NCBI GenBank assembly: GCA_016844925.1
Contig: JAERTI010000038.1
Location: 2,936 to 66,935, forward strand
DNA: 64,000 nt
Source: Candidatus Uhrbacteria bacterium
GTDB lineage: Bacteria; Patescibacteriota; Patescibacteriia; UBA9934; GWF2-40-263
Direction of reading: 5' to 3'
The notes beneath the pieces were generated by a model. That model was given only the letters and a program-made list of their open reading frames with translations, was not told the origin of the DNA and searched no databases. Of this stretch, positions 17,564-64,000 are shown piece after piece. Each line of letters begins with the position of its first letter. Position 1 is the stretch's first letter. The position numbers were made by a program, and so were the translations under genes.

Positions 17564-17609
17564 CCGTTGCCTCCTTTGTAAAGGGCACGCCATTGATTGG
17601 CGATGTGGT

Positions 17610-17638
17610 ACAATAGCCGTAATTACGGGGTTTGTCAA
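17610..17638 (-). promoter_or_regulatory. sigma70-like promoter TTGACA-N17-TATTGT upstream of the cyclase gene
   Basis: Read on the minus strand: TTGACA aaccccgtaattacggc TATTGT. Confidence 0.5.
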
Positions 17639-19622: not shown

Positions 19623-20207
19623 CTAGTTGCCCCGAATGCGGGCCAGGGCCGTGAGGATGTTCGCCCAGTCGTGCTCGGTGTCACCGTCGGGGTTCTGATC
19701 GATCCACTGCGCAACGATGCGGCCACCGTTGACCAGGGTGATGCCGTTGCGGACGCGGGGACCGCTGTTGAGCTTGATGCCGAGGATGCGGCGCAGGGTC
19801 TCCGAGGGGAGAAACACCGTGCGCTTGCCGGCCAGGCTCTCGATGCCGTGGTGGGTGCAGAGCTCACCGGCGCCGTAGACCGGCGCGCTGATGTAGGCGC
19901 GGTCGGTGTGACCGATCATGAGCAGTGCCGGCGTCTCCAGTTCGCAGGCGCGCTGCAAGAGCTGCTCGACTTCATCGAAGTGCTCCAGCCTCTTGATCGA
20001 GAGGATCAGGACCGGATCCTCGCTCGGCAGGATGCCGATGTGGATCGGCTTGTCCTGCGTGATGAGCCCGTCTCCTTCCGGACGCCAGAACGGCGTCATG
20101 GTGGCATCGGCAGGGAAGTCGCTCAGCAACGTCTGCGTCGACGTGCTGGGGGGCGGCTTCGTGGCCGGGGGCTGCTTGGGCCCGATCTGGGGGGTACGTC
20201 CTTCCAT
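19623..20207 (-). CDS. hypothetical protein (194 aa), high GC, Pro-rich N-terminus
   Basis: ATG at 20205-20207 (reverse strand) with GAGGAG 7 nt upstream; the track's TTG at 20213 is 2 codons longer. Own promoter and terminator. No domain recognised. Confidence 0.55.
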   Translation of the reverse strand: MEGRTPQIGPKQPPATKPPPSTSTQTLLSDFPADATMTPFWRPEGDGLITQDKPIHIGILPSEDPVLILSIKRLEHFDEVEQLLQRACELETPALLMIGHTDRAYISAPVYGAGELCTHHGIESLAGKRTVFLPSETLRRILGIKLNSGPRVRNGITLVNGGRIVAQWIDQNPDGDTEHDWANILTALARIRGN

Positions 20208-20275
20208 CTTCAAACTCCTCGATCTTCTGTAGTGGTTCAGCGTGCTCGCATCATTCAGCGGTTAGCACGAGCGGG

Positions 20276-24461: not shown

Positions 24462-24528
24462 GATTGATGTTGGTTGACATGAGGGTGTTCGTGTATTATG
24501 AAGAGTGAGCATCCAACCTGGAGGGATC

Positions 24529-25350
24529 ATGCACATGCGTTCTTTGCTCTTGCCTTTCTGCCTCTTCGCTCTGGTGAGCTGCACGCCGCCGGACGCCGAG
24601 GATCCGTTCGTGAAGTCGGACGACAGCGACAACACCGGCACCGTCGAAGACTCCGACGACGGAGATGGCGGTGGTGACACGGACGACGACGACAGCGCCG
24701 AGCCGGTCGACGAAGACGGTGACGGGTACAGCCCCGATCTGGACGACCAGGACTGCGACGACAGCGACGACACGATCTACCCGGGCGCGCCCGAGGTCTG
24801 CGGCGATGGCATCGACCAGGACTGCGACGGTTCGGATCTCGAGTGCGAAGAGAAGACCGGTGAGTGGAGCGCCATCGTGTGCGAGATGGAGCACAGCTGG
24901 TTCCGCGACGACGAGATCGAGTGGGAGATCGAGTGGTACGAGGATCGTGGTGGTGACGACCCCCTCGAGGTGGGCGTCGCCTTCAACTACCTCATGGAGG
25001 AAGACCAGCTCATCCAGGCCGACGCCTACACGGTGACCTGGCCCACGCACTACGAGAGCCTCGAGTCCTACCCCGTCTACGACGGCGAGGTCGACTACGA
25101 CGGTCAGCCCCTCAACTTCACCAGCTTCCGCATGGAGTGGAGCGACCGGAGCGAGCCCCAGCCGGGCCTCTACGACTTCTTCGACGCCGCGGGCAACATG
25201 ACCCTCAGCCCCGGAGACGTCGTCTCCTTCGCCATGTGGTCCTGGAGCGACTACGACGGCGAGCCCGTCTACCTCCACTGGACCATCAACGAGTACGGCA
25301 TGGAGGACTACTACGGGACCTGCTACCTGACCTGGTCCACCGAGGAGTAG
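24529..25350 (+). CDS. Asp-rich lipoprotein with a MopE-type (Myxococcus-type) cysteine-rich putative metal-binding motif; high GC
   Basis: Signal plus lipobox MRSLLLPFCLFALVSC. Motif DEDGDGYSPDLDDQDCDDSDDTIYPGAPEVCGDGIDQDCDGSD. GGAGG 4 nt upstream of the ATG at 24529. Confidence 0.65.
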   Translation: MHMRSLLLPFCLFALVSCTPPDAEDPFVKSDDSDNTGTVEDSDDGDGGGDTDDDDSAEPVDEDGDGYSPDLDDQDCDDSDDTIYPGAPEVCGDGIDQDCDGSDLECEEKTGEWSAIVCEMEHSWFRDDEIEWEIEWYEDRGGDDPLEVGVAFNYLMEEDQLIQADAYTVTWPTHYESLESYPVYDGEVDYDGQPLNFTSFRMEWSDRSEPQPGLYDFFDAAGNMTLSPGDVVSFAMWSWSDYDGEPVYLHWTINEYGMEDYYGTCYLTWSTEE

Positions 25351-28880: not shown

Positions 28881-28972
28881 TATGAATCGCGGTGCTGGAT
28901 TTTCTCATACCTGCAGAGCGAGAGGATTTTGCAGGTGTGGGAAGAGCTCACGCCGGATACAGGGAGGCAACG

Positions 28973-30526
28973 TTGACTCAAGTCATTCTTCTACTCGGAG
29001 CTGCTGGGTGTGGCAAGACCACGCTCATCGGCAGCATCGTTCGCAACTTCGGAGGCGATCGATCGATCGCGGTCGTCTTCAACGACGACGGGGATCCCGA
29101 GGCCACCGATCTGCCCGACGATCTCGGGCGGTTCGCCGACATCACGTCCATGACAGCAGGGTGCTTCGGATGCACCGATTCGACGGCCTTCCTGGAGTGC
29201 ATTCAGGCTCTCCAGGAGCAGGTGCCGGCACTCGACGTCATTCTGGTGGAGCCCGTGGGTTTCACCGATGCACAAGAGATGCTCGACACGCTGGCCGAGA
29301 TCCATGTGATCCCGACGGTGGTCGCACTGGTGGATGCGGCGCATCACGCACACAACCTGAAGCTGGGTACGACCGAAGGTCACGTTTTGGCCGCCGACTG
29401 CACGCTGGTCACCAAGATCGACGCTGCGGACACGAGCATGAACGTGGTCTCCTGGTCCCAGGAGCGCTGTTCGGATGTCCGGGTCTTCCGGGCTGACGAC
29501 GTCTTCGACCCGGCGACCATCAGGTTGCCAGCGCATGCGCATCATCACGACTGCGGCCACGATCACGTGCACGGCGAATCGTGCGATCACCACCATCATC
29601 ATGACGATGGTCATCATGACCATCACCACAGCCACGGACATTCCCACGGACATGTCTGCACCTTCCATGCGCGACTCGCGTCGGAGGTGAATGTCGACAC
29701 GGTCAGGGGAGTGCTCGAAGATCACCCACTGGTGCTCCGAGCCAAGGGGCTCGCTTCCAGCGGACGCTTCAGCATGGTCCAGGGGAGCTGGGACATCTCG
29801 GAGGATAGTCCGGGAGTCAGCTTCATTACCTTCTACACCGCGCCCGGCGACAGTGTCGCTGGTGAGGCGTGCCTCGAGGCCTTGCGACCGCACTACGCGG
29901 TTGGGTCCGGAGGATTGAAGGGGACGATGGCCGCCATGCGCGGAGATACCGACGTGGAGGTGGTCGAGTACCAGCTCGATGTCTGTCGCCGCAAGCCGCT
30001 GACCTTCTCCGCAGGGCATCCGGTGCCCAGTCCGGAGTGGCTCGAGGTGCTGATCCTGCTGCGACATCGGCCGGGAGTCCCTGAAGACCTGAAGCTCGCG
30101 TGTGAGGAGGTGTATGTCAATCACTGCCTCGCGTGCGCGCGTTGGTACATGGACAATCCTGGTCGCGATGGTGAACCTGTTGCCACGGCGCGCATCCACG
30201 ACATCGCCGTCGGTCTGGGGTGGTTCGTGAACAAGAACGCTGAGAGTCTGCGTCCGGAGGTGGTTCGGGAAGCCGAGCGCATCCCGGTTGCCGGCTGGCT
30301 GCGAACCTCCCTCCTGGCCCGTACGCGGATCAGTCCCAACCGGGACAAGGAGCTGGTCATCGCAGAGGACGTCGCTGTCAGTGCCGCCTGGGCACTGCGC
30401 GTCGGTCAGACTCCCCAGGACCTCAAGAGCGCCTGGGATCACAACCGGCGTCTGGCTGAGGCCTCTGGCGACGCCACGGCTGTCGAGGCCTGGGTCGCAT
30501 CCTGGGAGACGGTCGCCTCCGCGTGA
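28973..30526 (+). CDS. divergent COG0523/G3E-family P-loop GTPase (CobW/ZigA-like metallochaperone) with a His-rich tract and a long C-terminal extension; high GC
   Basis: Walker A GAAGCGKTT at residues 9-17. The family's usual CxCC becomes GCFGC. His-rich stretch HAHHHDCGHDHVHGESCDHHHHHDDGHHDHHHSHGHSHGH. TTG start at 28973 with GGAGG 5 nt upstream; the in-frame ATG at 28892 lies in low-GC sequence with no RBS. Confidence 0.7.
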   Translation: MTQVILLLGAAGCGKTTLIGSIVRNFGGDRSIAVVFNDDGDPEATDLPDDLGRFADITSMTAGCFGCTDSTAFLECIQALQEQVPALDVILVEPVGFTDAQEMLDTLAEIHVIPTVVALVDAAHHAHNLKLGTTEGHVLAADCTLVTKIDAADTSMNVVSWSQERCSDVRVFRADDVFDPATIRLPAHAHHHDCGHDHVHGESCDHHHHHDDGHHDHHHSHGHSHGHVCTFHARLASEVNVDTVRGVLEDHPLVLRAKGLASSGRFSMVQGSWDISEDSPGVSFITFYTAPGDSVAGEACLEALRPHYAVGSGGLKGTMAAMRGDTDVEVVEYQLDVCRRKPLTFSAGHPVPSPEWLEVLILLRHRPGVPEDLKLACEEVYVNHCLACARWYMDNPGRDGEPVATARIHDIAVGLGWFVNKNAESLRPEVVREAERIPVAGWLRTSLLARTRISPNRDKELVIAEDVAVSAAWALRVGQTPQDLKSAWDHNRRLAEASGDATAVEAWVASWETVASA

Positions 30527-36907: not shown

Positions 36908-37204
36908 AAAATCACTAAACCACAGTATGTAGAGCTGTGGTTTTATGTTTGCTGTACAAGTTTTTAGTGGCGGAATACGTTGACAAAAGCGTTAAAAAAT
37001 GGTAGTCTCCTTTCCTGGCTTACAATCTGGAACCCACTCTTTCTTCCGTGGAGGAGTGGATACCGATGGGTACTAGAATCCCCAAAAAGCATTCAGAAAC
37101 ACGCATTAGCGGTTCTCCCTCTGTGAGGGATTTAGGACAATTAGTGCGTGTTTTTGGTCACGGAGACCATTGAATGCGATCAAGCCTTCAGTCCAAGAGA
37201 CAAC

Positions 37205-37765
37205 ATGAAGCGTTTTCTGATCCCCATGACCCTTATCCTTACCTCCTGCTTCGAGGGGGGTGCGAGTTTCCCCCTGGGGAAGAGTGGCTACTGCATGGGT
37301 GTTGGTCTGGGAACGGGAGAGGGGAAGCTCGAGTGGCTCGACATCGAGCTCAACGAGTGCATCCCGGAGGGATACTACGGCTGCGACCAGATCGACGTGA
37401 ACTACGATGGGGCCTTCGGTGGAGCGAGTTGCCAGGGGGCGTACGACTTCCCGGATTCCTACACCATGAGCTTCGTCACGTCTCGAGAGGTGACCCTCGC
37501 TGTGGTCTCGTGGGAGACGGACATGATGGACAGTTCTTTCAACGAGATCCTGTACCCTGTCTGGGTGGGTGATTCGAACTACGAGTTCGTCATGCACTTC
37601 CCGAACCCTGGGTACGGATCCGACGGTGACCAGATCGACTACAGCATCGACGTCTACATCGGCAACACGCTGATCGCTGACCCGGTGGTCAGCGCGACGC
37701 TCGACGGCGTCCCCGAAGACGTCGACTACGACGCACGAGACCGCGAGTACAGCTCGAGGTGGTAA
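37205..37765 (+). CDS. lipoprotein, hypothetical; high GC
   Basis: ATG at 37205 gives the lipobox MKRFLIPMTLILTSC. About 170-nt leader containing a 35-codon uORF. Confidence 0.55.
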   Translation: MKRFLIPMTLILTSCFEGGASFPLGKSGYCMGVGLGTGEGKLEWLDIELNECIPEGYYGCDQIDVNYDGAFGGASCQGAYDFPDSYTMSFVTSREVTLAVVSWETDMMDSSFNEILYPVWVGDSNYEFVMHFPNPGYGSDGDQIDYSIDVYIGNTLIADPVVSATLDGVPEDVDYDARDREYSSRW

Positions 37766-47960: not shown

Positions 47961-48929
47961 CTAGAGCAGGCCTTCTTGCCGGTACCAGTCAATGGCTCTG
48001 GTGAGCCAGGCTTGGGTTGGTTCCGGGTGCCAGTCCAGTTCCTCGCGGGTTCGTTCGCAGAGGAAGTCTGCGTTGTCGCGGAGCATGGCTTGAACCTTTT
48101 CCGTGCCCATGGGGGTGGCCTTGCGTCCTGTCCGGTGACAGGTCCAGGTGATGACCTTTGCGAGGGAGAGAGCGAGCCAGCCTGGCAGGATGCGAGCGCG
48201 CTTGATGCGGGTTCCAAGCGCGAGCTCCAGCTGGAGGTACAGCTCCTCGGTTGTGTAGCTGTCTGCCGTGAGGGTGTAGATGCCGCGATGGGTCCCACGT
48301 TCACCGGCGGCGATGATGCCGCGCACGCAGTCGTCGATCGAGAGCAGGTAGAACGTGCTCTGGACGAATGCGGGGAGTGAGCCCTTGGCCATGGCCAGCA
48401 TGATCTTGGCGGAGCCTCCGAGGCGACGGCCCTGTACGGATGCCGGGCGCACGATGACGACCTCGGGTCCTTCGGGCCCCAGGTTTTGAACCACCGTCTC
48501 TGCGCAGAGCTTGGTGTGACCGTAGGCAGATCCTCGGAAGTCGGATGCGCCTGTGACACTCTTCTGCGAGATGGCCGTGACGCTGCTGATGTAGACGAGC
48601 CGCTTCACCTCTGCGCGCCGCATGGCTTCGCAAACGATCTGGGTTCCAAGCCCGTTCACCTTCCACATCTCCCCGACCTCTTGAGGGGGGAGATCCCATC
48701 CGTTGATGCCGGCCAGGTGGTAGACCACTTGGCAGCCTCGCATCATCTTGGTGAGCTGTCCGGTGTTGAACAGGTCTCCGTGCACGGCTTGGGCGCCTGC
48801 AGCCTCGACGGTTGCGGCGGCATCTTCTGAGCGGACGAGGGCGATCACGTCGTGGTGTTCACTCAGGGCGCGGATCAGCGATTCGCCGATGAATCCGCTT
48901 CCTCCGGTGATGAATACTCGTGAGTTCAC
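47961..48929 (-). CDS. NAD-dependent epimerase/dehydratase (extended SDR family); high GC
   Basis: FITGGSGFIG Rossmann motif right after a GTG start at 48927-48929 with AAGGAGGAACC upstream. YxxxK-like SAYGHTK. Terminator acggatcacaatgatccgt at 47922-47940. Confidence 0.7.
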   Translation of the reverse strand: MNSRVFITGGSGFIGESLIRALSEHHDVIALVRSEDAAATVEAAGAQAVHGDLFNTGQLTKMMRGCQVVYHLAGINGWDLPPQEVGEMWKVNGLGTQIVCEAMRRAEVKRLVYISSVTAISQKSVTGASDFRGSAYGHTKLCAETVVQNLGPEGPEVVIVRPASVQGRRLGGSAKIMLAMAKGSLPAFVQSTFYLLSIDDCVRGIIAAGERGTHRGIYTLTADSYTTEELYLQLELALGTRIKRARILPGWLALSLAKVITWTCHRTGRKATPMGTEKVQAMLRDNADFLCERTREELDWHPEPTQAWLTRAIDWYRQEGLL

Positions 48930-49054
48930 GGTTCCTCCTTCATGCGTGTGCATGCGCCGTATCTGTACCATATGTTACGGCCCTGTCAATGGATTTGTCG
49001 TATCATGCGAAGTTTTCCTCTTGAGATTTCGCCATTTTCTGGCATAGTAGGGCC

Positions 49055-54175: not shown

Positions 54176-55471
54176 ATGAAAAAGAAGTTGAAGCTTACAA
54201 AAGAGTTCAAGGCTGCCTTCAAGGCGATGAACGAGACGGATGACGATATTTTTCTGACAGGACGTGCTGGAACAGGGAAGTCCACGCTCCTGAAATACTT
54301 TCGTAAGAACACAAAAAAGAAACACGTGGTATTGGCACCAACGGGTGTAGCAGCGTTGAATGTGAAAGGCCAAACGATTCATTCGTTTTTTGGATTTCAT
54401 CCAGCCATCACTCCCGCTAGGGTGCGGAAGGCCGATCCGGATTCCCTAGCGATCTTCAAGGCGATCGAGACGATTGTGATTGATGAGATCTCCATGGTGC
54501 GGGCGGACCTGCTTGATTGTGTTGATCGTGCGCTGCGACTCAATCGTGAGCGACCCAAGGAGCCGTTTGGTGGGGTGCAGATGATTTTCATCGGTGACCT
54601 CTATCAGTTGCCGCCAGTGGTAACACGTGACGATGCACATCGATTCCAGACGGAGTACACGTCTCCGTATTTTTTCTCCGCTGATGCCATGCGTGGCACC
54701 CCGATCAAGATTATTGAGTTGCAGAAGGTGCATCGTCAAAAGGAGCAGTCGTTTGTCGACCTGCTTGAGAAGCTGCGTACAGGAGCTCTAGATGCGGACG
54801 ATGTCGAGGCGTGGAATCAGCGTCACGATCCGTACTTTGATCCTCGTGAGGAGTCAGATGTGATTCATCTGACAACCACCAACAAGATGGCAAAGCAACG
54901 AAATGATTATGAAATGAAGTGTCTTGAGGGGAAGGAGTGGAAGCTTCAGGCGCGAACGGAAGGTCATCTGCCAGATCGTCGCATGCCATCGGAGCCGACG
55001 ATTATTCTCAAAGAGGGGGCCAGGGTCATGTTCACTATGAATGATCCGGCAAAGCGCTGGGTCAACGGAAGTCTTGGAACGGTTGTCCGTATTAAAAAGA
55101 TTGGGCTATCAAAATTTCCCGATGTCACCGTGGAGCTTGAGGACGGGAAAGAGGTTGAGGTGAAGCCACACAAATGGGAGCTCTTTGAATATGGATCGGA
55201 TGGGGGAGACATCGAGGAAGAGATTACGGGATCATACACACAGTATCCGATTGCTCTGGCATGGGCGGTAACGATTCATAAGGGACAGGGGAAGACCTTT
55301 AAGCGTGTTCTCGTTGATGTAGGGTGGGGAGCATTCGCTCATGGTCAGATGTACGTAGCCCTGAGTCGTTGCACGACGTTTAAAGGATTAGTCTTGCTCA
55401 AACCGTTTCGGGTGAAGGATGTGATCCTGGATCAGGCGGTTGTTGATTTTATGAACATGGCCTCTATATGA
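54176..55471 (+). CDS. PIF1/RecD-like superfamily-1 DNA helicase
   Basis: Walker A GRAGTGKST, DEISMV (Walker B) and C-terminal VTIHKGQGKTFKRV. Confidence 0.75.
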   Translation: MKKKLKLTKEFKAAFKAMNETDDDIFLTGRAGTGKSTLLKYFRKNTKKKHVVLAPTGVAALNVKGQTIHSFFGFHPAITPARVRKADPDSLAIFKAIETIVIDEISMVRADLLDCVDRALRLNRERPKEPFGGVQMIFIGDLYQLPPVVTRDDAHRFQTEYTSPYFFSADAMRGTPIKIIELQKVHRQKEQSFVDLLEKLRTGALDADDVEAWNQRHDPYFDPREESDVIHLTTTNKMAKQRNDYEMKCLEGKEWKLQARTEGHLPDRRMPSEPTIILKEGARVMFTMNDPAKRWVNGSLGTVVRIKKIGLSKFPDVTVELEDGKEVEVKPHKWELFEYGSDGGDIEEEITGSYTQYPIALAWAVTIHKGQGKTFKRVLVDVGWGAFAHGQMYVALSRCTTFKGLVLLKPFRVKDVILDQAVVDFMNMASI

Positions 55472-56016
55472 AGAAGGTTGAGCTCTATAGACACTCGATA
55501 AAACTAGGGCATGGTGATTGTGATCTGAGTCCGGAGGGGATTGAGAAGGCCATGGCCATGGGCAGAGAACTCCTCCGGGGGAAGGGCTATACGCACCTCT
55601 ATGTAAGTCCGCTCATTCGAACAACGGAAACGATTAATGCGTTTGCGCTCGGAGCTGGTGATTTTCCTGATGTGACCCTCCAGGAGTTCCCACCCCATGT
55701 GACTGTCTCAACCAGTCAGGAGGCTATGCGTCTTTGGACGGGGGTCTGTCATCGAGCGGAAGCTCATGGAACCGACATGCTTCAAGCTGTCCTTGAACAA
55801 GAGGCTGAGGTGGGTCAGGTGGTGGCAGCCGAGGCGGCCAAGGCATTTGTCTTGTGGCTTAAAGATTTGCCCGAGGAGGCACATGCGCTCGTCGTGGGGC
55901 ACAGTCCATTTCTTGAGTTGATGATTTACGGGCTGTTCAACAAACAGTTAACACAGTTTCAGCCCTGTGATGGTGCTTGCATCACGTTTAATGACGGGGT
56001 GTTGTCCCTTGAGTAA
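55468..56016 (+). CDS. histidine phosphatase (phosphoglycerate-mutase family)
   Basis: RHS..G catalytic His motif at the N-terminus and SPLIRTTETI. Confidence 0.65.
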   Translation: MKKVELYRHSIKLGHGDCDLSPEGIEKAMAMGRELLRGKGYTHLYVSPLIRTTETINAFALGAGDFPDVTLQEFPPHVTVSTSQEAMRLWTGVCHRAEAHGTDMLQAVLEQEAEVGQVVAAEAAKAFVLWLKDLPEEAHALVVGHSPFLELMIYGLFNKQLTQFQPCDGACITFNDGVLSLE

Positions 56017-56045
56017 ACAAAACCAAAACCACCGGTCAGGCCGGT
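56016..56045. terminator. bidirectional terminator between the phosphatase gene and typA
   Basis: aaaaccaccggtcaggccggtggtttttt. Confidence 0.75.
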
Positions 56046-58018: not shown

Positions 58019-58975
58019 ATGAAATACATTTTCCTGCTCCTTACGATTTTTCCGCTTCCTGCACTGGCGCACGTTGAATACGTCCTCGATGACGACACGT
58101 TTACAGATCACGCGGGTTCTGATGTGCCTTTTTTACTCGAGGCCGTAACGGATGTTGGTGCATGGGCACTCATCTTGCTCTCGTTGTTGGCAGGGGCTCT
58201 TGTGTATGTTTTAGCGAGTCGTTCAAAGATCGTTCAGGAGGAGCATGAGCATATTAATGAGTGTCGTAAGCACTACGAAGATTATTTCCCTTGGATGGCT
58301 CGTCTTGCCATCGGAATTTCGCTCATTGGTGCGGGGTCTTCTGGGGCGTTTATTTCACCTGCGTTTGAGGCGGTTTCATGGGTTGGAGATCTCCAGATAC
58401 TCTTAGGGTTCATGGTGCTTGTTGGATTTTTGTTGAGTCCAGTGATGTTAGCAGTAGCGTTTTTGTATCTGCTCGCACTTGTCCTCGATCCTTATGCGAT
58501 AGGGAACTTGGACCTCTTGGCACTGGTAGTCATGTTCATGATGTACGGCAGCACTCGTCCAGGTGCCGATGATCTTCTGGAGATTCCTTTTGTTTCTCCG
58601 CTAAAGAAGTTTAAAGCGTATGCTCCGTTTGTCTTACGTGTGGGGATTGGCGTCGCGATGATCTACCTCGCGCTTTGGGAGAAGTTGCTTAATCCTCATA
58701 CGGCCGAACTCGTCGTTCAGAATTATGAGCTCACATCCGTTGTTCCCGTGAGTGCTGCTGCCTGGGTGTTTTGGGCGGGATTCGTTGAGCTGTTTATTGG
58801 AGTCTGTCTGCTGTTAGGGGTTCGCGTGCGAACCATGAGTCTTATTGCCTTTTTGGTGCTTAGTCTTTCGTTCTTCTATTTTGGTGAAGAAGTGTATTCA
58901 CACATTACGCTCTTCACCGTGCTGTCGATCTTGTTTGTTGTGGGTCCTGAAAAGTGGAAGCCTTCGATTAAGTAA
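58019..58975 (+). CDS. membrane protein with a signal peptide and a DoxX-like region (tentative)
   Basis: Signal peptide, several TM helices. Terminator aactatcagtttgcgctgatagtt at 58986-59012. Confidence 0.45.
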   Translation: MKYIFLLLTIFPLPALAHVEYVLDDDTFTDHAGSDVPFLLEAVTDVGAWALILLSLLAGALVYVLASRSKIVQEEHEHINECRKHYEDYFPWMARLAIGISLIGAGSSGAFISPAFEAVSWVGDLQILLGFMVLVGFLLSPVMLAVAFLYLLALVLDPYAIGNLDLLALVVMFMMYGSTRPGADDLLEIPFVSPLKKFKAYAPFVLRVGIGVAMIYLALWEKLLNPHTAELVVQNYELTSVVPVSAAAWVFWAGFVELFIGVCLLLGVRVRTMSLIAFLVLSLSFFYFGEEVYSHITLFTVLSILFVVGPEKWKPSIK

Positions 58976-59019
58976 TGGATTAAAAAACTATCAGTTTGCG
59001 CTGATAGTTTTTTCGTTGA

Positions 59020-59499
59020 CTAGTTTTCTGTTCGCTTGAGATCTTCTAATTGCATGAGGATCGGTCCATCACTTCCTCCTCCTTCGAGTTTAAAGACTTC
59101 TTTAAAACGTTTCTGGTCTCCGGCTTGGCTGTGTGGTCGAACGCGCAGGGTTCCGTCTGAGTGTGTGATGAAATAGACTTCTTGAATTCCCTCTATCCAG
59201 GTGTTCAGGGTTCCACGGGTTCCGCTATCTATCCGATCGAAAAAGTCATTCCATTCTTTTTCTACAACGCGACCTTGTTCATATTGCGAGCTTCCTGGTC
59301 GGCCCAACATGCTTGTTGAGGCAGCGGCAAGAACCGCTTTCATTTCTTCAAGATCTCGTGAGGCCAGAGCATTTGCCACAAGGTCTCGTGCTCCTTTTTC
59401 TTTGATGATCTCACGAAGTTCTCCTACGTGGGCCATGATTTCTCTTTGTCTTTCCAGGCGCGCTGCCTCCTCAGCTCCTGGGTCAAGTGTGTCTCGCAT
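59020..59499 (-). CDS. hypothetical protein (about 159 aa)
   Basis: Start moved to the ATG at 59497-59499 (reverse strand). The track's TTG at 59553 would put the HAD gene's terminator hairpin (59546-59566) inside the coding region. Confidence 0.45.
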   Translation of the reverse strand: MRDTLDPGAEEAARLERQREIMAHVGELREIIKEKGARDLVANALASRDLEEMKAVLAAASTSMLGRPGSSQYEQGRVVEKEWNDFFDRIDSGTRGTLNTWIEGIQEVYFITHSDGTLRVRPHSQAGDQKRFKEVFKLEGGGSDGPILMQLEDLKRTEN

Positions 59500-59577
59500 A
59501 ATGTGGATTAATGAATTTGATTCAAGTGTAGCAGCAAATAAAAAATGCTCCAACGAGGTGTTGGAGCGTGCTCACGT

Positions 59578-60225
59578 TCAGAGCAGTTGAGGGAGGATGT
59601 CCGGGAGCTCGGTGAGGCTCCGGATGTGGAACTGGGCATCGTGGCTGCGCTGGAACTCTTCGCTGCGCAGGATCTGGATGCGATGGACGTTGGGGTGGGC
59701 GAGTGCTTCGCGGTGCTCCACCGGGTTGTCATCGATCAGCACAACGGTCGCGCTACGGCCGAGCTTCTTGGTGATGAGCCGTGCCTTGCGGCCAGACTGG
59801 CTCGTCACCATGATGGGCCCCATCTTGTCGGTGGGGAACGGCACCGAGCCGAACTTCCTCGACTGGAAGGTTCCCTCACCAAAGGTGGCCACACAGACAC
59901 ACTCCACGATCTCGCTGCGCGCGAACAGGTTCATGCTCGTGGCAACGTCCTCGTAGAGCGCGTGTCCGTCGGAGATCCACTGGTAGAAGATCTGGATGGC
60001 CGCATGCAGAGGCTCGAGTGCCTCGCTCGGCGGTTCCAGTTCCCACAGGTGGAGTTCGGGCGAGTAGACCTTGCCCGCAGTGGACCAGAGTCGGGCACCA
60101 GCTTCGCGGATCAACTCGGCGTCGGTGCCGAGGATCTTGCTCCAGGTTTCGCACATGGCGTTCCAGCCTTCGAAGACATTCACGAGGGTGAAGTCCAGGT
60201 CAAAGGCCAAGGTAAGTCTGCTCAT
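59578..60225 (-). CDS. HAD-superfamily hydrolase; high GC
   Basis: Motif I LAFDLDFTLV (DxDxT). Terminator gctccaacgaggtgttggagc plus T6 on the minus strand. Confidence 0.7.
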   Translation of the reverse strand: MSRLTLAFDLDFTLVNVFEGWNAMCETWSKILGTDAELIREAGARLWSTAGKVYSPELHLWELEPPSEALEPLHAAIQIFYQWISDGHALYEDVATSMNLFARSEIVECVCVATFGEGTFQSRKFGSVPFPTDKMGPIMVTSQSGRKARLITKKLGRSATVVLIDDNPVEHREALAHPNVHRIQILRSEEFQRSHDAQFHIRSLTELPDILPQLL

Positions 60226-60325
60226 TCGCTCATCTCCTTCGTGGGGAGTCTAGGAGAAGTTGTGGGTGAGGTCAATGCGTCATGGGCCTAGTGTTGGGGT
60301 TTAGAAATAGGTACCATGCAGACAT

Positions 60326-61135
60326 ATGGCGATTAGTAGAATGCGTAGCACACTTGGAAAAACAACGCTTGGTGCGTTGGGGGTTGTTTGGTTGGGAGTT
60401 CAACCTCCTGAGGCAAAACCACTCACGCTTGAGGGGGAGGAGCAGATGGCACAGGTTTTGAATGAACTTGATGATTTAACGAGTGTCGCTAGAGAGGCTC
60501 TCGACATGATGGACGAGGGGGTGTTTGAGCGCGCCCAAGGATCGTTTGGTTCTAAGGAACAAGTTGGGAGGTTGCTCAAGAATACACCTGGGGCGTTTAA
60601 GAATATGCTTAAGGCCGGTTCGGTAAGAACAATGGATGCCTCATATATGGCTGGGAAAACACGTAGCGCTCTAGCATCCGGAGTGCTCACACCTTGGGAG
60701 AGTGATGATGTGGTGGTGATCCCTTGGGATGAAGAAAAGAAAAAGATTATTGTGCAGGGCGGAGATTCTCTTCCAGCCGTGCTTGCCCATGAGTACACAC
60801 ATTTTATCGTTGGCCCGCATTCGTTCTCCTATCTTGTCGACGTCCATGAAGATACAGAACGAACGTCCGCAGAGTGGACTGCTCTAGCTCGTGAGCATGG
60901 AGATGTTCCATACCTTGTCGGTGACTTGCTTTGGTTGTTGGATGAATGGAGCGAGAATCGTCGTGATAACGAGGGAGATCTGACCTATCTAGATATGGCA
61001 GAGGTTTTTGGAATTGATCATGAGGAGGCCGAAGTGCTTGCCGAGCGGATCCAGGAATTGTCTCGCGAGCGCGATCAGGAGCGCCTTGCTGAGGTGCGAC
61101 GGAGTGAGGGGGCATCGAGACTATCAAGAAAATAA
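60326..61135 (+). CDS. hypothetical protein with an HExxH motif (LAHEYTHF)
   Basis: Backbone GC. Third protein in the window with an LxHExxH(T/F) motif. Confidence 0.5.
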   Translation: MAISRMRSTLGKTTLGALGVVWLGVQPPEAKPLTLEGEEQMAQVLNELDDLTSVAREALDMMDEGVFERAQGSFGSKEQVGRLLKNTPGAFKNMLKAGSVRTMDASYMAGKTRSALASGVLTPWESDDVVVIPWDEEKKKIIVQGGDSLPAVLAHEYTHFIVGPHSFSYLVDVHEDTERTSAEWTALAREHGDVPYLVGDLLWLLDEWSENRRDNEGDLTYLDMAEVFGIDHEEAEVLAERIQELSRERDQERLAEVRRSEGASRLSRK

Positions 61136-61140
61136 AAAGA

Positions 61141-61160
61141 CCCACCAGGGAGTTGGTGGG
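61141..61160. terminator. hairpin cccaccagggagttggtggg between convergent genes; terminator for the minus-strand nrtR-like gene
   Basis: Preceded by AAAAA on the plus strand, which is a T-run on the minus strand. Related to the hairpin at 61849-61869. Confidence 0.7.
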
Positions 61161-61775
61161 TTAGAAGATCGTGCGATAGATGGTTGCGGGCCTCGTCGGT
61201 GTCGGGCGCTTTTCTTTGGTGTCCCACACCAAACCCTTGCGCTGCATGCGCAGGACGCGCTTGCGGAAGTTGGAGTGGTCCAGCGAAACATCCAGGATGC
61301 TCTCATAGACGCGTCGGAGTTCTGTGGCGGTAAAACCGTCACGACTCACGAAGCGGAAAGCTGTCACGCCCCGGCCGTGGGCCAGGTCTTCCTTGAGGAA
61401 GTCAAGGGCTTTTCTCAGTGCCTCGTTTCCCTTGTGGTCCTTGGTTGGCATCCTTGAGACATCTTTCCAGCAGAGGAATCGAAACTCGTGCTGGACGGAG
61501 TAGGGCTCTCCGATCATCAGTGGGTAGATGGTCATTCGGCCGGAGTTGTCAGCGGCCACAGACACGTGTCCTGAGAAGCGGAGGCGACCCTCCAGGCTCA
61601 GGTGGTTGTTGTGTTGGAGCATGGGCTCCAGGGGGCCTTCTGTCCAGTGGTGCTCCGGCCACCGTACGGGTTCGTCGGGAGGGTCGTTCAGCAGCACTCG
61701 CAGGGAAGGTTCCTTACCGTTCAGTCGAACATTGGCAACAGCGAGGCAGATGGTCTTGATCAAGACTTGCGCCAT
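61161..61775 (-). CDS. nrtR: NrtR-family Nudix-related transcriptional regulator (degenerate Nudix N-domain plus C-terminal winged helix); high GC
   Basis: C-terminal FTATELRRVYESILDVSLDHSNFRKRVLRMQRKGLV...RPATIYR matches the conserved NrtR wHTH signature. Own promoter TTGACA-N17-TAGGTT at 61812-61840 (minus strand). Confidence 0.7.
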   Translation of the reverse strand: MAQVLIKTICLAVANVRLNGKEPSLRVLLNDPPDEPVRWPEHHWTEGPLEPMLQHNNHLSLEGRLRFSGHVSVAADNSGRMTIYPLMIGEPYSVQHEFRFLCWKDVSRMPTKDHKGNEALRKALDFLKEDLAHGRGVTAFRFVSRDGFTATELRRVYESILDVSLDHSNFRKRVLRMQRKGLVWDTKEKRPTPTRPATIYRTIF

Positions 61776-61848
61776 GGCAGTCCCTTTCTCTCCGCGGTAG
61801 GCGAAGATTTGAACCTACTGTGTGTAGTTGATTATGTCAATAAAAAAT

Positions 61849-61869
61849 CCCACCGTGGCGTTTGGTGGG
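61849..61869 (-). terminator. hairpin cccaccgtggcgtttggtggg immediately after the stop of the 61870 gene
   Basis: Followed by a T-run on the minus strand. Same family as 61141-61160. Confidence 0.7.
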
Positions 61870-62394
61870 TTACTTGGTGGTCTTGAGTGAATCGTAGCCT
61901 GACTCCACGACCTCAAACAGGCTGATGCAGGTTTCGCGCGCCTGTTCCTCTGAGAGGTCGACGATGGACACGCTGGCACGGAGAAGGTCCATGGCGTCCT
62001 TGATCTTGTGCTTGCGTGCAGCACGTTCAGGGCCGGGCTTCATCTTCGCCGCGGACATGCTGGAGATGTGCAGCGACAGCGTGTAGTCCGTCTCGAGGCT
62101 GGCACGGCGAGTTGGGTCCAACAGGTCTTCGGTGCACCCTTGAATGAACGCGTCCTTGGATTCTTGCGCCCATTGCGACATGGCTGTCGCGAGTGACCGG
62201 ACATCTTGTCTGATCTGTTCTCGCGAGTAGCGAGCTTCCGCTTGCTCTTGTCTGTACCACTCGATCTCTTCTCCGAGCTCAGCGGTGGTGTCGCTGCTGC
62301 GCGCTGATTGGAACTTCAGCACGCTGGCTTTTCGACGGATGTCCTGCAGCTCATGCCAGCTCAGTAGCGCCGTGATGAGGATGATCACGATCAT
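61870..62394 (-). CDS. single-pass membrane protein (174 aa) with coiled-coil-like segments; high GC
   Basis: MIVIILITALLSWHEL N-terminal TM helix. The start at 62394 avoids overlap with the upstream gene. Confidence 0.5.
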   Translation of the reverse strand: MIVIILITALLSWHELQDIRRKASVLKFQSARSSDTTAELGEEIEWYRQEQAEARYSREQIRQDVRSLATAMSQWAQESKDAFIQGCTEDLLDPTRRASLETDYTLSLHISSMSAAKMKPGPERAARKHKIKDAMDLLRASVSIVDLSEEQARETCISLFEVVESGYDSLKTTK

Positions 62395-62428
62395 CGTCGA
62401 CAGGCGCCAGTACGGCAGCCTTTGGTGC

Positions 62429-62812
62429 CTAGCGGACACTGGACTCGTCCAGCAAGATGGGCTCGATAGCCAGGCAGACGCGGAGTCGGTCTGCCCCCTT
62501 GGGGTTCTCCAGCTGAGCGAAGTGCTGTGTCTCGACGATGGCGTTGTCGAGTTCGATGACCAGCTGGGGGGTGCCGTGCTGGTAGATCTGGTCCGTGAGA
62601 TCCTCGAGGTACTCCAGGTGCATCTGCGCGCCGTTGTCCGGGTCTTCGAAGAAGATCTGGCCACAGCGATGGAGGAACATCTTGGCGTTCTCGGACGCTG
62701 GGATGATCACCTTGTCTGCAGGTGGCGACGCAGCGTGTTGCGGGGAGTGTGATTCCAGCAGGAGGAACAAGCACAGGGGCAGCAGGTAAAGGAACGAGGG
62801 GAAGGGGCGCAT
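62429..62812 (-). CDS. small secreted protein (127 aa); high GC
   Basis: Signal peptide MRPFPSFLYLLPLCLFLLL. GAGAAAGG before the ATG at 62812 (reverse strand). Confidence 0.55.
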   Translation of the reverse strand: MRPFPSFLYLLPLCLFLLLESHSPQHAASPPADKVIIPASENAKMFLHRCGQIFFEDPDNGAQMHLEYLEDLTDQIYQHGTPQLVIELDNAIVETQHFAQLENPKGADRLRVCLAIEPILLDESSVR

Positions 62813-62891
62813 GGCGACCTTTCTCTGCGCGGTGAATTCGGCAGATGATGAGGGTGCCAGTCAGCGAGTCTTTTGTCAATGGAAATAGAAG

Positions 62892-62936
62892 AACCCTCGC
62901 GACACAGGGACGAGAGAGTCCTTCTGTGCGAGGGTT
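62892..62936. repeat. hairpin aaccctcgc-N27-gcgagggtt, related to the AACCCTC...GAGGGTT palindromes at 350/860; likely terminator of the 141-aa gene
   Basis: 9-bp perfect stem. Lies between the stop of 62947..63372 and the TTGACA box of the next gene. Confidence 0.6.
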
Positions 62937-62946
62937 TCGCGTGTGC

Positions 62947-63372
62947 CTAGGCTCGGACGAGTCCGAGCTGGATCATCTCACCGAGGCTGATGCCCCGGCG
63001 GCGGGTGTGCGCGGTGTGCGCGTCCCACTTTCCGGTCACCCAGAGGGTGCCCAGCCGCACGTACTCGGGGACGTAGACGCCCTCGGGCTTGAACGTGGTG
63101 TGCTTGGCCGGGATCTGGTACATCGGCCCCTTCCAGCTGCGGTAGTCATTGACGTACACCGTGTAGCCGGCGGCGTGCAGGCCAGCCATGAAGCTGATCA
63201 CGCAGCAGTGGCGCGGGAGAACCACGCCGGTGCCCATGAAGTACTCCAGCTGCGGGTCGATCCGCACCTTGGGCTTGCCGTACCGGTTCACCATGATGGT
63301 GCGCTCGCTCCACGGGCGTCCGCCGCGGATGATGGTGACGTCCTTGCGGTTGGTCTTGTTGGTCTTGCTCAT
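62947..63372 (-). CDS. hypothetical basic protein (141 aa); high GC
   Basis: AAGAGG before the ATG at 63372 (reverse strand). About 100-nt high-GC 5'UTR. No domain recognised. Confidence 0.5.
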   Translation of the reverse strand: MSKTNKTNRKDVTIIRGGRPWSERTIMVNRYGKPKVRIDPQLEYFMGTGVVLPRHCCVISFMAGLHAAGYTVYVNDYRSWKGPMYQIPAKHTTFKPEGVYVPEYVRLGTLWVTGKWDAHTAHTRRRGISLGEMIQLGLVRA

Positions 63373-63678
63373 GTTCTCAACCTCTTGCGAGGGGGCGGCA
63401 CTTGCGCGCTGCCCATGTTGGGTGTGTGGCCCGGAGGCCGCGGAGCGACTTGGGTGAGGCCGCGTTCCATGAGGTCATCAGCAGTAGATAAGATGACGCT
63501 CAACCCACATGTGAGAAACTCTGTCTATGCAGACGTTTCCTTCTGAATCATTGCCGTTGCAAATTGCTTGTGTGCATATATTGCAGGCAATGTCAGCTGA
63601 CGAGGATAGCGGAAAAACAGGCTTTTGTCAACCGTCTGTGTCTGTTAAACTGGGCGGGAGATTCATAAAAATGATCGT

Positions 63679-64000
63679 ATGTTTGAACTACCAGAACTTC
63701 CATTTGAAAAAGATGCCTTGGGTGACTGGACGAGTGCTGAGACACTTGAGTATCACCACGGGAAACATCACGCTGGCTACGTAAAGAAATTGAACGGGGC
63801 TGTGCTTGGAAACGAGTTTGAGGGGCAGGAGCTTCTTGAGGTAATTGCTGGCTCTCGTGATCGAAATCAAAAAGTGTTCAACTTGGCAGCACAGCATTAC
63901 AACCACAGCTTTTTCTGGAATGGGCTGACGGGGGAGACAGGTGCTCTTGAGGGCGCACTTGCCGAAGCGATTGATCGCGATTTCGGATCATTGGACGAGT
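63679..64000 (+). CDS. sod: Fe/Mn superoxide dismutase (N-terminal part; continues past the window)
   Basis: MFELPELPFEKDALGDWTSAETLEYHHGKHHAGYV matches the Fe/Mn-SOD N-terminal domain, including metal-ligand His. Confidence 0.8.
   Translation, partial: MFELPELPFEKDALGDWTSAETLEYHHGKHHAGYVKKLNGAVLGNEFEGQELLEVIAGSRDRNQKVFNLAAQHYNHSFFWNGLTGETGALEGALAEAIDRDFGSLDE

What the first reader, a model, noticed from the sequence alone, without database searches (positions are those of the whole stretch)
61161..63470. High-GC four-gene minus-strand block: NrtR-family regulator with three small unknown proteins
The NrtR-like protein has the highly conserved C-terminal ADP-ribose-responsive wHTH signature, but its N-terminal Nudix-like half lacks an obvious Nudix box. 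NrtR normally sits beside NAD salvage genes. Here its partners are a 141-aa basic protein, a 127-aa secreted protein and a 174-aa single-pass membrane protein of unknown function, each with separate promoter and terminator signals. An ADPR/NAD-sensing regulator attached to unknown small envelope proteins is unusual.
Basis: partly seen in the sequence, partly recalled or inferred. Interest (0 to 1): 0.55.

Follow-up and report, generated by a model that had tools for sequence, protein, structure and literature searches.

The report
Divergent NrtR-like regulator in variable gene cluster
A real but fairly ordinary find: a divergent NrtR-family transcription factor with a catalytically dead Nudix-like sensor domain lies among fast-evolving orphan genes of a Parcubacteria (CPR) genome, and a related genome keeps those neighbours without the regulator, so nothing ties it to them or to NAD/ADP-ribose sensing.

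Summary
Four minus-strand, GC3-rich ORFs (GC3 0.73-0.94, against about 0.5-0.6 for neighbouring housekeeping genes) are real genes: pN/pS is 0.26-0.52 against relatives that are 92-93% identical in DNA, while the overlapping alternative frames give 1.0 or more.

The 204-aa protein matches Pfam NrtR_WHD (52 bits, cut-off 27). Its model (pLDDT 88) superposes over its full length on So-NrtR and Bt-AraR (TM about 0.7). It has no Nudix box, which is usual for this family.

- There are three transcription units, not four. sp127 and the membrane protein overlap, and the latter is probably 189 aa from a GTG start.
- A Parcubacteria relative (TypA 90% aa) keeps sod|b141|sp|tm|HAD|typA and has no nrtR.
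- Other members of this short, Nudix-box-less subfamily sit in unrelated contexts, including rpiB-rpe in an Uhrbacteria genome.
- No 21-bp GT-N7-AC operator lies in any promoter of the block, and no NAD gene is in the 64 kb.

Best reading: a self-contained, ligand-responsive wHTH regulator with unknown effector and targets, gained or lost as a single-gene unit in a hypervariable accessory cluster.

The more striking side observations are a conserved structured leader before b141 and gene-precise high-GC3 mosaicism across the window.

The parts
61161..61775 (-). nrtR-like gene, 204 aa: degenerate Nudix-fold N-domain (about residues 1-140) plus NrtR-type winged HTH (147-201)
   Evidence: Pfam NrtR_WHD 52.1 bits. 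AF2 pLDDT 87.8. Foldseek matches 3gz6 (So-NrtR) and 5bs6 (AraR) with TM 0.68-0.70. pN/pS 0.27 overall, 0.35 for the N-domain and 0.21 for the wHTH.
61812..61840 (-). putative nrtR promoter: TTGACA, 17 nt, TAGGTT
   Evidence: Read from the sequence. It falls below the scanner's -10 threshold. Other junctions of this cluster and of L096 have the same layout.
61130..61161 (-). intrinsic terminator after nrtR (CCCACCAACTCCCTGGTGGG plus a T-run)
   Evidence: It is a near-duplicate of the terminator after the tm gene (family D1).
61842..61869 (-). intrinsic terminator after the tm gene (CCCACCAAACGCCACGGTGGG plus a T-run)
   Evidence: (D1).
61870..62439 (-). single-pass membrane / coiled-coil protein, probably 189 aa from GTG 62439 (174 aa if from ATG 62394)
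   Evidence: Relatives are called at 189 aa, overlapping the sp gene. The GTG start adds a basic N-terminus before the hydrophobic helix. pN/pS 0.5. Its C-terminus is 25-27% identical to the L096 178-aa protein.
62429..62812 (-). 127-aa protein with an N-terminal signal-peptide-like segment, co-transcribed with the tm gene
   Evidence: pN/pS 0.26. 31% identical to the L096 147-aa protein.
62851..62879 (-). putative promoter of the sp127-tm operon (TTGACA, 17 nt, CACCCT)
   Evidence: Read from the sequence. Homologous to the L096 b150-to-147 junction, TTGACT-17-CATCCT.
62883..62936 (-). long hairpin plus T-rich tail: terminator after b141
   Evidence: Read from the sequence. Conserved in L090 and L096.
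62947..63372 (-). b141: 141-aa basic orphan protein, the best-conserved gene of the cluster
   Evidence: GC3 0.94. pN/pS 0.30. 73% identical to a Parcubacteria hypothetical protein, P0084. No family or PDB match. AF2 failed with pLDDT 37.
63373..63610 (-). conserved, structured 5' leader of b141 (about 225-240 nt)
   Evidence: 83% identical to L096, more than the flanking CDSs. MFE -90 kcal/mol, z = -4.3. 5 compensatory pairs. No Rfam family.
63603..63631 (-). b141 promoter-like site (TTGACA, 17 nt, TATCCT), back-to-back with the sod promoter region
   Evidence: Conserved in L096.
59578..60225 (-). u215: HAD-like hydrolase. In relatives it is the gene immediately after nrtR, and it belongs to the conserved cluster.
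   Evidence: Motifs DLDFTL / ATFG / K / IDDN read from the sequence. 42% identical ortholog in L096 retains all of them. GC3 0.83, pN/pS 0.27. No Pfam hit.
60277..61130 (+). strain-specific single-gene insertion (u269, contains HExxH) that separates nrtR from u215
   Evidence: Absent from L090-L095. The junction lies between the terminator T-run and the u215 -35 element.

Best explanation
The 204-aa gene encodes a self-contained transcription factor of the NrtR/AraR structural family. It has a catalytically dead, strongly diverged Nudix-fold domain, which would serve for dimerisation and possibly ligand sensing, fused to an NrtR-type winged helix-turn-helix.

By analogy with So-NrtR and Bt-AraR it most likely binds an inverted-repeat operator as a dimer and is released when a small molecule binds. 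That mechanism is inferred, not shown.

It belongs to a short (200-210 aa) subfamily that carries only the wHTH Pfam signature and is found in CPR bacteria and in some high-GC bacteria. The effector is unknown and need not be ADP-ribose. A pentose or ribose-phosphate metabolite is as plausible, because the Uhrbacteria member sits divergently next to rpiB-rpe.

In this genome, a Parcubacteria-group (Patescibacteria) bacterium, nrtR is a monocistronic unit inside a hypervariable accessory cluster between sod and typA. The cluster is built from GC3-rich orphan genes joined by repeated terminator-promoter junctions.

The core of the cluster (b141 with its structured leader, the secreted protein, the membrane protein and the HAD-like hydrolase) exists without nrtR in a related species. 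The adjacency to the three small proteins is therefore an accident of single-gene gain or loss, not a conserved regulon.
For: - Family and fold. All 26 aligned relatives carry NrtR_WHD and only 9 carry Pfam NUDIX.
- Subfamily features: length, a 3-residue insertion in the wHTH, and conservation confined to the wHTH.
- The genes are real and under purifying selection.
- Own promoter-like site and terminator.
- Host identity: TypA is 72-77% identical to Uhrbacteria-like MAGs. L096, from a 'Parcubacteria group bacterium', has TypA 90% identical plus synteny.
- L096 has sod|b150|147|178|225(HAD)|typA with no nrtR and only 97 nt between the 178-aa and 225-aa genes.
- Single-gene indels between close strains: u269 and the His-phosphatase gene.
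- Unrelated contexts of other subfamily members: rpiB-rpe; AhpC / TM-protein / EF-G; an unknown 160-aa gene.
- No small-protein homologues in those loci.
- No NAD genes in the window.
- No canonical operator in the promoters.
Against: - The order b141 - sp127 - tm - nrtR - u215, all on one strand, is kept in six independent assemblies of the lineage. These are only 7-8% diverged, so this is weak evidence.
- A 15-nt 5'-UTR element, ACCGCGSAGAGAAAG, occurs in the whole 64 kb only upstream of nrtR and of sp127. It could be a shared control site.
- In a high-GC lineage the NrtR-like gene is always preceded by a non-homologous single-pass membrane protein of about 180 aa, which parallels tm189-nrtR.
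- Gain in this lineage and loss in L096 cannot be told apart with two lineages.
- DNA binding, dimerisation and ligand response are inferred from homology only.
- The AF2 model used an alignment containing canonical NrtRs, which may bias the N-domain towards a Nudix fold.
Confidence: 0.6

Rival explanations
1. The NrtR-like protein is the dedicated local regulator of the flanking envelope and HAD genes. It would sense a metabolite, possibly host-derived ADPR or a ribose derivative, and switch the secreted/membrane pair and neighbouring units on or off. This is essentially the first reader's idea.
For: - Same strand and tight spacing, with the order conserved in L090-L095.
- The 15-mer shared between the nrtR and sp127 5'-UTRs is unique in the window, against 0.01 expected.
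- A recurrent 'single-pass TM protein then NrtR-like' pair in another lineage.
- NrtR regulators are commonly auto-regulated and encoded next to their targets (PMC2330246, PMC6800001).
Against: - L096 keeps the cluster, and even an ACCGCGCA...GGAGAAAG UTR element upstream of its HAD gene, without nrtR.
- No palindromic operator is shared among the four promoter regions, and none has a GT-N7-AC core.
- The TM proteins of the two lineages are not homologous (hhalign probability 0.1).
- The shared UTR element is better explained by common descent of duplicated terminator-promoter modules.
Confidence: 0.2
2. It is a canonical NAD-homeostasis NrtR: an ADPR-responsive repressor whose targets (nadD/E, pncB, prs, nadV, niaP and similar) lie elsewhere in the genome, outside this window.
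For: - Family membership.
- Weak match to the NCBIfam ADPR-responsive repressor model over the wHTH only.
- A multidomain protein with a Nudix domain lies 37 kb away.
Against: - NCBIfam equivalog score is 30 bits against a cut-off of 400.
- There are no conserved N-domain residues across the subfamily.
- None of the subfamily contexts examined contains an NAD gene.
- No GT-N7-AC palindrome lies in a promoter anywhere in the 64 kb. The 5 hits are in CDSs, a tRNA or a terminator.
Confidence: 0.12
3. The block is non-functional: spurious ORFs in GC-rich foreign DNA, or decaying remnants of a transfer.
For: - The neighbours are orphans, and the long overlapping ORFs on both strands are typical of GC-rich DNA.
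- Constraint is relaxed compared with housekeeping genes: pN/pS 0.26-0.52 against 0.03 for TypA.
Against: - The annotated frames show substitutions biased to third positions and pN/pS below 0.55, while the alternative frames give 1.0 or more.
- The ORFs are intact in six assemblies, and three of them in a species-level relative.
- The GC3 signature is frame-specific.
Confidence: 0.03

Closest known systems
Shewanella oneidensis NrtR (PDB 3GZ5/3GZ6), ADP-ribose-responsive repressor of NAD genes
   Same: Two-domain layout of a Nudix fold plus a C-terminal winged HTH. Foldseek TM 0.70 over 221 columns. Match to the Pfam NrtR_WHD model. The Nudix signature is impaired, as in most NrtRs (PMC2330246).
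   Different: Only 17% identity. About 35 residues shorter. No Pfam NUDIX match. A 3-residue insertion after the recognition helix. No NAD-gene neighbourhood. No GT-N7-AC operator found. The effector is unknown.
Bacteroides thetaiotaomicron AraR (PDB 5BS6/5DEQ), L-arabinose-responsive NrtR-family repressor
   Same: It is the best sequence match in the PDB (residues 102-178) and the top Foldseek hit (E 5.8e-10). It shows that the family senses ligands other than ADPR and controls non-NAD genes (PMC4666351). An Uhrbacteria member of the present subfamily sits next to the pentose-phosphate genes rpiB-rpe.
   Different: No sugar-utilisation genes are nearby in this window. The match to the AraR_C Pfam model is below its cut-off (22.9 against 23.8 bits). 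Conservation of the arabinose-binding residues was not assessed.
Agrobacterium NadQ (PDB 7Q91-7Q94), Nudix-related NAD regulator
   Same: A Nudix-like domain plus a related wHTH. Foldseek E about 1e-7 to 1e-8.
   Different: NadQ is much larger (about 290-336 aa), with TM only 0.4-0.57. It has a different domain arrangement and binds ATP or NAD.

Membership tests
NrtR family (Nudix-related transcriptional regulators) | C-terminal NrtR-type winged helix-turn-helix DNA-binding domain | tested here: met
   Pfam PF21906: 52.1 bits against a cut-off of 27, residues 147-201. All 26 aligned relatives carry it.
NrtR family (Nudix-related transcriptional regulators) | N-terminal Nudix-hydrolase-like fold | tested here: met
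   No Pfam NUDIX hit. However, the AF2 model (pLDDT 87.8) aligns over its full length to NrtR and AraR and, for the N-domain, to Nudix hydrolases. phmmer aligns residues 9-201 to two relatives: P0051, whose aligned sequence keeps a near-intact Nudix motif, and the subfamily member P0007. This is prediction-level evidence only, and the alignment used for the model contained canonical members.
NrtR family (Nudix-related transcriptional regulators) | Nudix signature GX5EX7REUXEEXGU (not required: it is impaired in most NrtRs and in AraR) | tested here: not met
   The aligned region reads WPEHHWTEGPLEPMLQHNNHLSLEG, with no REUXEE. An impaired signature is normal for the family (PMC2330246, PMC4666351).
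NrtR family (Nudix-related transcriptional regulators) | 21-bp palindromic operator with a GT-N7-AC core upstream of its own or target genes | tested here: inconclusive
   None in any promoter of the block. The only such palindrome in the block region (window 58900-63700) lies inside the nrtR CDS (61214-61234), and the count of 21-bp palindromes there (4) is close to the roughly 2 I estimated by hand for random sequence. Window-wide hits are in CDSs, a tRNA or a terminator. Operator motifs vary between lineages, so absence of the consensus is not decisive.
NrtR family (Nudix-related transcriptional regulators) | Genomic association with NAD synthesis/salvage, PRPP or pentose genes | tested here: not met
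   No such gene in the 64-kb window or next to the other subfamily members examined. The one exception is rpiB-rpe beside the Uhrbacteria member.
NrtR family (Nudix-related transcriptional regulators) | DNA binding relieved by ADP-ribose | not testable with these tools
   This needs EMSA or ligand-binding assays. There is no conserved N-domain pocket across the subfamily.
NCBIfam NF050029, ADPR-responsive repressor (equivalog) | Whole-protein score above the curated cut-off | tested here: not met
   30 bits against a cut-off of 400. Only the wHTH aligns.
HAD-superfamily hydrolase (for the neighbour u215) | Motifs I-IV: DxDxT, S/T, K, DD | tested here: inconclusive
   DLDFTL, ATFG, a conserved K/R and IDDN are present and are kept in the 42%-identical L096 ortholog. 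No Pfam or PDB sequence match, and no structure was predicted.

The most novel reading that the evidence does not exclude
The sod-typA cluster is a Parcubacteria-specific host-interaction or envelope module: b141 behind a new class of structured cis-regulatory leader, a fast-evolving secreted/membrane pair, and a HAD phosphatase. In one lineage the cluster recruited an NrtR-like sensor of a nucleotide- or ribose-derived, possibly host-supplied, metabolite to control it. The gene-precise GC3 mosaic and the repeated terminator-promoter junctions would then reflect a cassette-like mechanism for inserting promoterless foreign ORFs into resident expression modules.
Probability: 0.1. Interest if true: 0.65.

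Novelty: new variant of a known kind. Interest (0 to 1): 0.33.

Why it matters
Taken as described, this adds a divergent, short branch to the NrtR/AraR family: no Nudix box, recognisable only by its wHTH, and present in CPR bacteria. It also shows that the family name cannot be read as 'NAD/ADPR sensor'. Transcription factors are scarce in the small genomes of CPR bacteria, so any ligand-responsive regulator there is a potential handle on what these symbionts sense.

The surroundings may matter more than the regulator. Single-gene indels at terminator-promoter junctions, ORF-precise high-GC3 genes, and a leader RNA better conserved than housekeeping coding sequence all point to how a reduced genome acquires and wires in foreign genes.

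Tried and rejected
- Word-index homologue searches for NrtR-like and for b141 returned only near-identical proteins plus one 73% relative. The exhaustive HMMER search gave 65 hits and defined the subfamily.
- The search for related loci with the subfamily alignment failed because it had no conserved stretch.
- Scans with the single NrtR protein found nothing in genome contigs or metagenome contigs.
- The b141 alignment found nothing in metagenome or viral contigs.
- tblastn of NrtR-like against phages found nothing. Against plasmids it found only two distant NUDIX-domain proteins in Catenovulum.
- Pfam, NCBIfam, PHROGs, PADLOC and PDB-sequence searches of the three small proteins, u215, u177 and u269 gave nothing significant.
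- AF2 of b141 with four sequences gave pLDDT 37, so no fold search was run on it.
- The afdb50 fold library was unavailable.
- Operator search: no shared palindrome and no GT-N7-AC site in the promoters.
- A 33-codon upstream ORF ending in ATGA at the b141 start was considered. Reading the two leader sequences by eye, its frame is not kept in L096, and the conserved segment contains the AAGAGG ribosome-binding site.
- Homology between tm189 and the TM protein that precedes NrtR-like genes in the high-GC lineage was rejected (hhalign probability 0.1).
- Integron attC-like junctions were considered, but I saw no R'/R'' core sites. The junction hairpins look like ordinary intrinsic terminators.
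- Rfam scan of 58900-64000 gave no match below E = 1.
Full report
**What is there**

The region 61161-63470 holds four minus-strand ORFs:
- a 204-aa NrtR-like protein (61161-61775);
- a membrane/coiled-coil protein (61870-62394 from ATG, or to 62439 from GTG);
- a 127-aa protein with a signal-peptide-like N-terminus (62429-62812);
- a 141-aa basic protein, here called b141 (62947-63372).

The block is GC-rich: 0.59-0.65 against a baseline of about 0.50. The excess sits at third codon positions in exactly these frames: GC3 is 0.73, 0.74, 0.84 and 0.94, against 0.39-0.60 for TypA, PIF1, DoxX and u177.

Six independent metagenome assemblies carry the same locus at 92-93.5% DNA identity. Against one of them the four ORFs give pN/pS of 0.27, 0.52, 0.26 and 0.30, with substitutions biased to third positions. 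Every overlapping alternative ORF gives 1.0-2.7. These are real genes under moderate constraint, not chance ORFs in GC-rich DNA.

**The regulator**

The C-terminus matches Pfam NrtR_WHD at 52.1 bits (cut-off 27, residues 147-201). There is no NUDIX hit. The NCBIfam equivalog for the ADPR-responsive repressor scores only 30 bits against a cut-off of 400.

An exhaustive HMMER search found 65 relatives. In the alignment they split into two groups:
- canonical Nudix-bearing NrtRs;
- a group of 200-210-aa proteins, including this one, with a 3-residue insertion after the recognition helix, only the wHTH Pfam signature, and conservation almost confined to the wHTH.

All 26 aligned proteins have NrtR_WHD and only 9 have Pfam NUDIX.

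AlphaFold with that alignment gave pLDDT 87.8. Foldseek placed the whole chain on Bt-AraR and So-NrtR (TM 0.68-0.70), then on NadQ, and placed the N-domain on Nudix hydrolases. The protein is therefore a Nudix fold plus a wHTH, without a Nudix box.

That is the normal state in this family, and known effectors already include both ADPR and L-arabinose (PMC2330246, PMC4666351). Both domains are under purifying selection.

**Transcription units**

- nrtR has a TTGACA-17-TAGGTT site upstream and a strong terminator downstream.
- b141 has a scanner-detected promoter (63631-63603), a long leader, and a hairpin with a T-rich tail after its stop.
- sp127 and the membrane gene have nothing between them. 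With the GTG start used by gene callers in the relatives (189 aa) they overlap by 11 nt. That start also supplies a basic N-terminus ahead of the hydrophobic helix.

So there are three units, not four.

**Host and context**

TypA next door is closest to Uhrbacteria-like and other Patescibacteria MAGs. A contig labelled 'Parcubacteria group bacterium' (L096) has TypA 90% identical and is syntenic. The window holds housekeeping genes (holB, frr, tRNA synthetase, tpiA, typA, ABC-F) and no NAD synthesis or salvage gene.

In the close relatives the order is sod | b141 | sp127 | tm189 | nrtR | u215 | u159 | doxX | typA. u215 carries HAD motifs (DLDFTL, ATFG, K, IDDN) that are conserved in its L096 ortholog.

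In the window itself, an 854-bp single-gene insertion (u269, contains HExxH) lies exactly between the nrtR terminator T-run and the u215 -35 element.

**The key comparison**

L096 has sod | b150 (73% identical to b141) | 147 aa (31% to sp127) | 178 aa (25-27% to the tm189 C-terminus) | 225 aa (42% to u215) | typA. It has no nrtR, and only 97 nt separate the 178-aa and 225-aa genes.

The three small proteins and the HAD-like gene therefore form a cluster that exists without the regulator. nrtR is flanked by near-duplicate terminator modules (D1), which fits either insertion with duplication or deletion by recombination. Two lineages cannot decide which happened.

Other members of the subfamily sit in unrelated settings:
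- divergent to rpiB-rpe, with transketolase nearby, in an Uhrbacteria MAG;
- after a conserved single-pass membrane protein and before EF-G in a high-GC lineage;
- next to unrelated 160-aa genes.

None of those loci encodes a homologue of b141, sp127 or tm189. The membrane proteins of the two lineages are not homologous.

**Operator search**

The family's usual site is a 21-bp palindrome with a GT-N7-AC core (PMC2330246). None lies in any promoter of the block. The only such palindrome in the block region is inside the nrtR coding sequence, and the number of 21-bp palindromes there (4) is close to the roughly 2 I estimated for random sequence. Window-wide hits fall in CDSs, a tRNA or a terminator.

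The 5'-UTRs of nrtR, sp127 and u215 each contain a different small hairpin.

A 15-mer, ACCGCGSAGAGAAAG, occurs only upstream of nrtR and sp127 in the 64 kb. A similar element precedes the HAD gene in the nrtR-less L096. The junction modules of the two genomes are weakly but detectably homologous: 0.61-0.66 identity against 0.53 ± 0.025 for shuffles. I read this as common descent of duplicated terminator-promoter modules, not as an NrtR operator.

**Conclusion**

The idea of an ADPR/NAD sensor wired to small envelope proteins is not supported.

The most likely picture is a standalone, ligand-responsive wHTH regulator with unknown effector and unknown targets, gained or lost as a single-gene unit in a hypervariable accessory cluster of a Parcubacteria genome. 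DNA binding, dimerisation and ligand response are inferred from homology.

A local-regulator role remains possible, at about 0.2. The arguments for it are the conserved order in close strains, the shared UTR element, and the parallel 'TM protein then NrtR-like' pair elsewhere.

**Side observations that may deserve more attention than the finding**

- The roughly 230-nt leader of b141 is 83% identical between the window and L096. That exceeds the b141 (78%), typA (80%) and sod (76%) coding sequences.
- The leader folds far better than shuffles (z = -4.3) and shows five compensatory pairs.
- Throughout the 64 kb, about a dozen single genes have GC3 of 0.72-0.98, with GC dropping to host level at most of their boundaries. 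The L096 orthologues of the cluster genes keep elevated GC3.
- Together with the single-gene indels at terminator-promoter junctions, this suggests ORF-level insertion of foreign genes into resident expression modules.

Noticed in passing
window 63373-63610 (-): The long 5' leader of b141 is more conserved between the window and the Parcubacteria relative L096 (83%) than the flanking coding sequences (76-80%). It is predicted to be highly structured (MFE -90 kcal/mol, z = -4.3) with 5 compensatory pairs, and a small hairpin covers the AAGAGG ribosome-binding site. It has no Rfam match and no other copy in 745 kb of held loci. It is a candidate new cis-regulatory RNA, possibly an autoregulatory target of the basic b141 protein.
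   Followed up: partly
window 60277-61130: An 854-bp single-gene insertion on the opposite strand (u269, 269 aa, signal-like N-terminus, HEYTH metalloprotease-like motif, host-like GC3 0.47). It is present only in this strain and sits precisely between the nrtR terminator T-run and the -35 element of u215.
   Followed up: partly
window 55462-56024: The histidine-phosphatase gene (55468-56016) between PIF1 and TypA is absent from the 92%-identical relatives and from L096. This is another gene-sized indel.
   Followed up: partly
window 59578-60225 (-): u215 is a GC3-rich (0.83) HAD-like hydrolase with motifs DLDFTL, ATFG, K and IDDN. It has a 42%-identical ortholog in L096 and no Pfam or PDB sequence hit.
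   Followed up: partly
window-wide, e.g. 3133-4551, 15671-17638, 19623-20213, 22413-24428, 24505-25350, 28892-30526, 37148-37765, 47961-48971: About a dozen individual genes have GC3 of 0.72-0.98 in a genome whose housekeeping genes have GC3 of about 0.5. GC falls back to 0.44-0.51 within 100 nt of most ORF ends. Most have no Pfam match; the others carry MopE metal-binding or FHA domains. L096 orthologues of the cluster genes keep elevated GC3, so the mosaic is old and gene-precise.
   Followed up: partly
window 61784-61798 and 62819-62833 (-); junctions 61812-61869 and 61130-61161; L096 11057-11164 and 11702-11798: The gene junctions of the cluster are built from a repeated module: hairpin, T-run, ATTGAC (-35), 17 nt, a TAnnnT-like -10, a 5'-UTR hairpin, then GAGAAAGG. 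The terminators on either side of nrtR are near-duplicates, as are those on either side of the 178-aa gene in L096. The 15-mer ACCGCGSAGAGAAAG occurs only before nrtR and sp127 in the 64 kb.
   Followed up: partly
window 22413-24428 (+): A GC3-rich 671-aa multidomain protein: DFP (CoaB-like), class II aldolase, GNAT and NUDIX domains. This is an unusual fusion and the only Nudix-domain protein seen in the window. No link to nrtR was tested.
   Followed up: no
L084 7335-8636, L087 7340-8636, L100 3634-5000: In a high-GC (0.66-0.71) lineage, the NrtR-like subfamily gene is always preceded on the same strand by a conserved single-pass membrane protein of 178-186 aa (34-36% identity between L100 and the other two genomes). 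This mirrors tm189-nrtR in architecture but not in sequence.
   Followed up: partly
L083 7399-8693: The Uhrbacteria member of the subfamily (P0024) is transcribed divergently from rpiB and ribulose-phosphate 3-epimerase, with transketolase genes nearby. This fits the pentose / ribose-5-phosphate branch of NrtR-family regulation proposed in PMC2330246.
   Followed up: no
window 61214-61234: A perfect 8-bp inverted repeat with a 3-nt spacer (TTTGGTGT GGG ACACCAAA) that fits GT-N7-AC lies inside the nrtR coding sequence, in the codons for the wing (GLVWDTKE). The number of 21-bp palindromes in the region (4) is close to my hand estimate of about 2 for random sequence, and the relative P0001 reads GLVWETTE at these residues.
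   Followed up: partly
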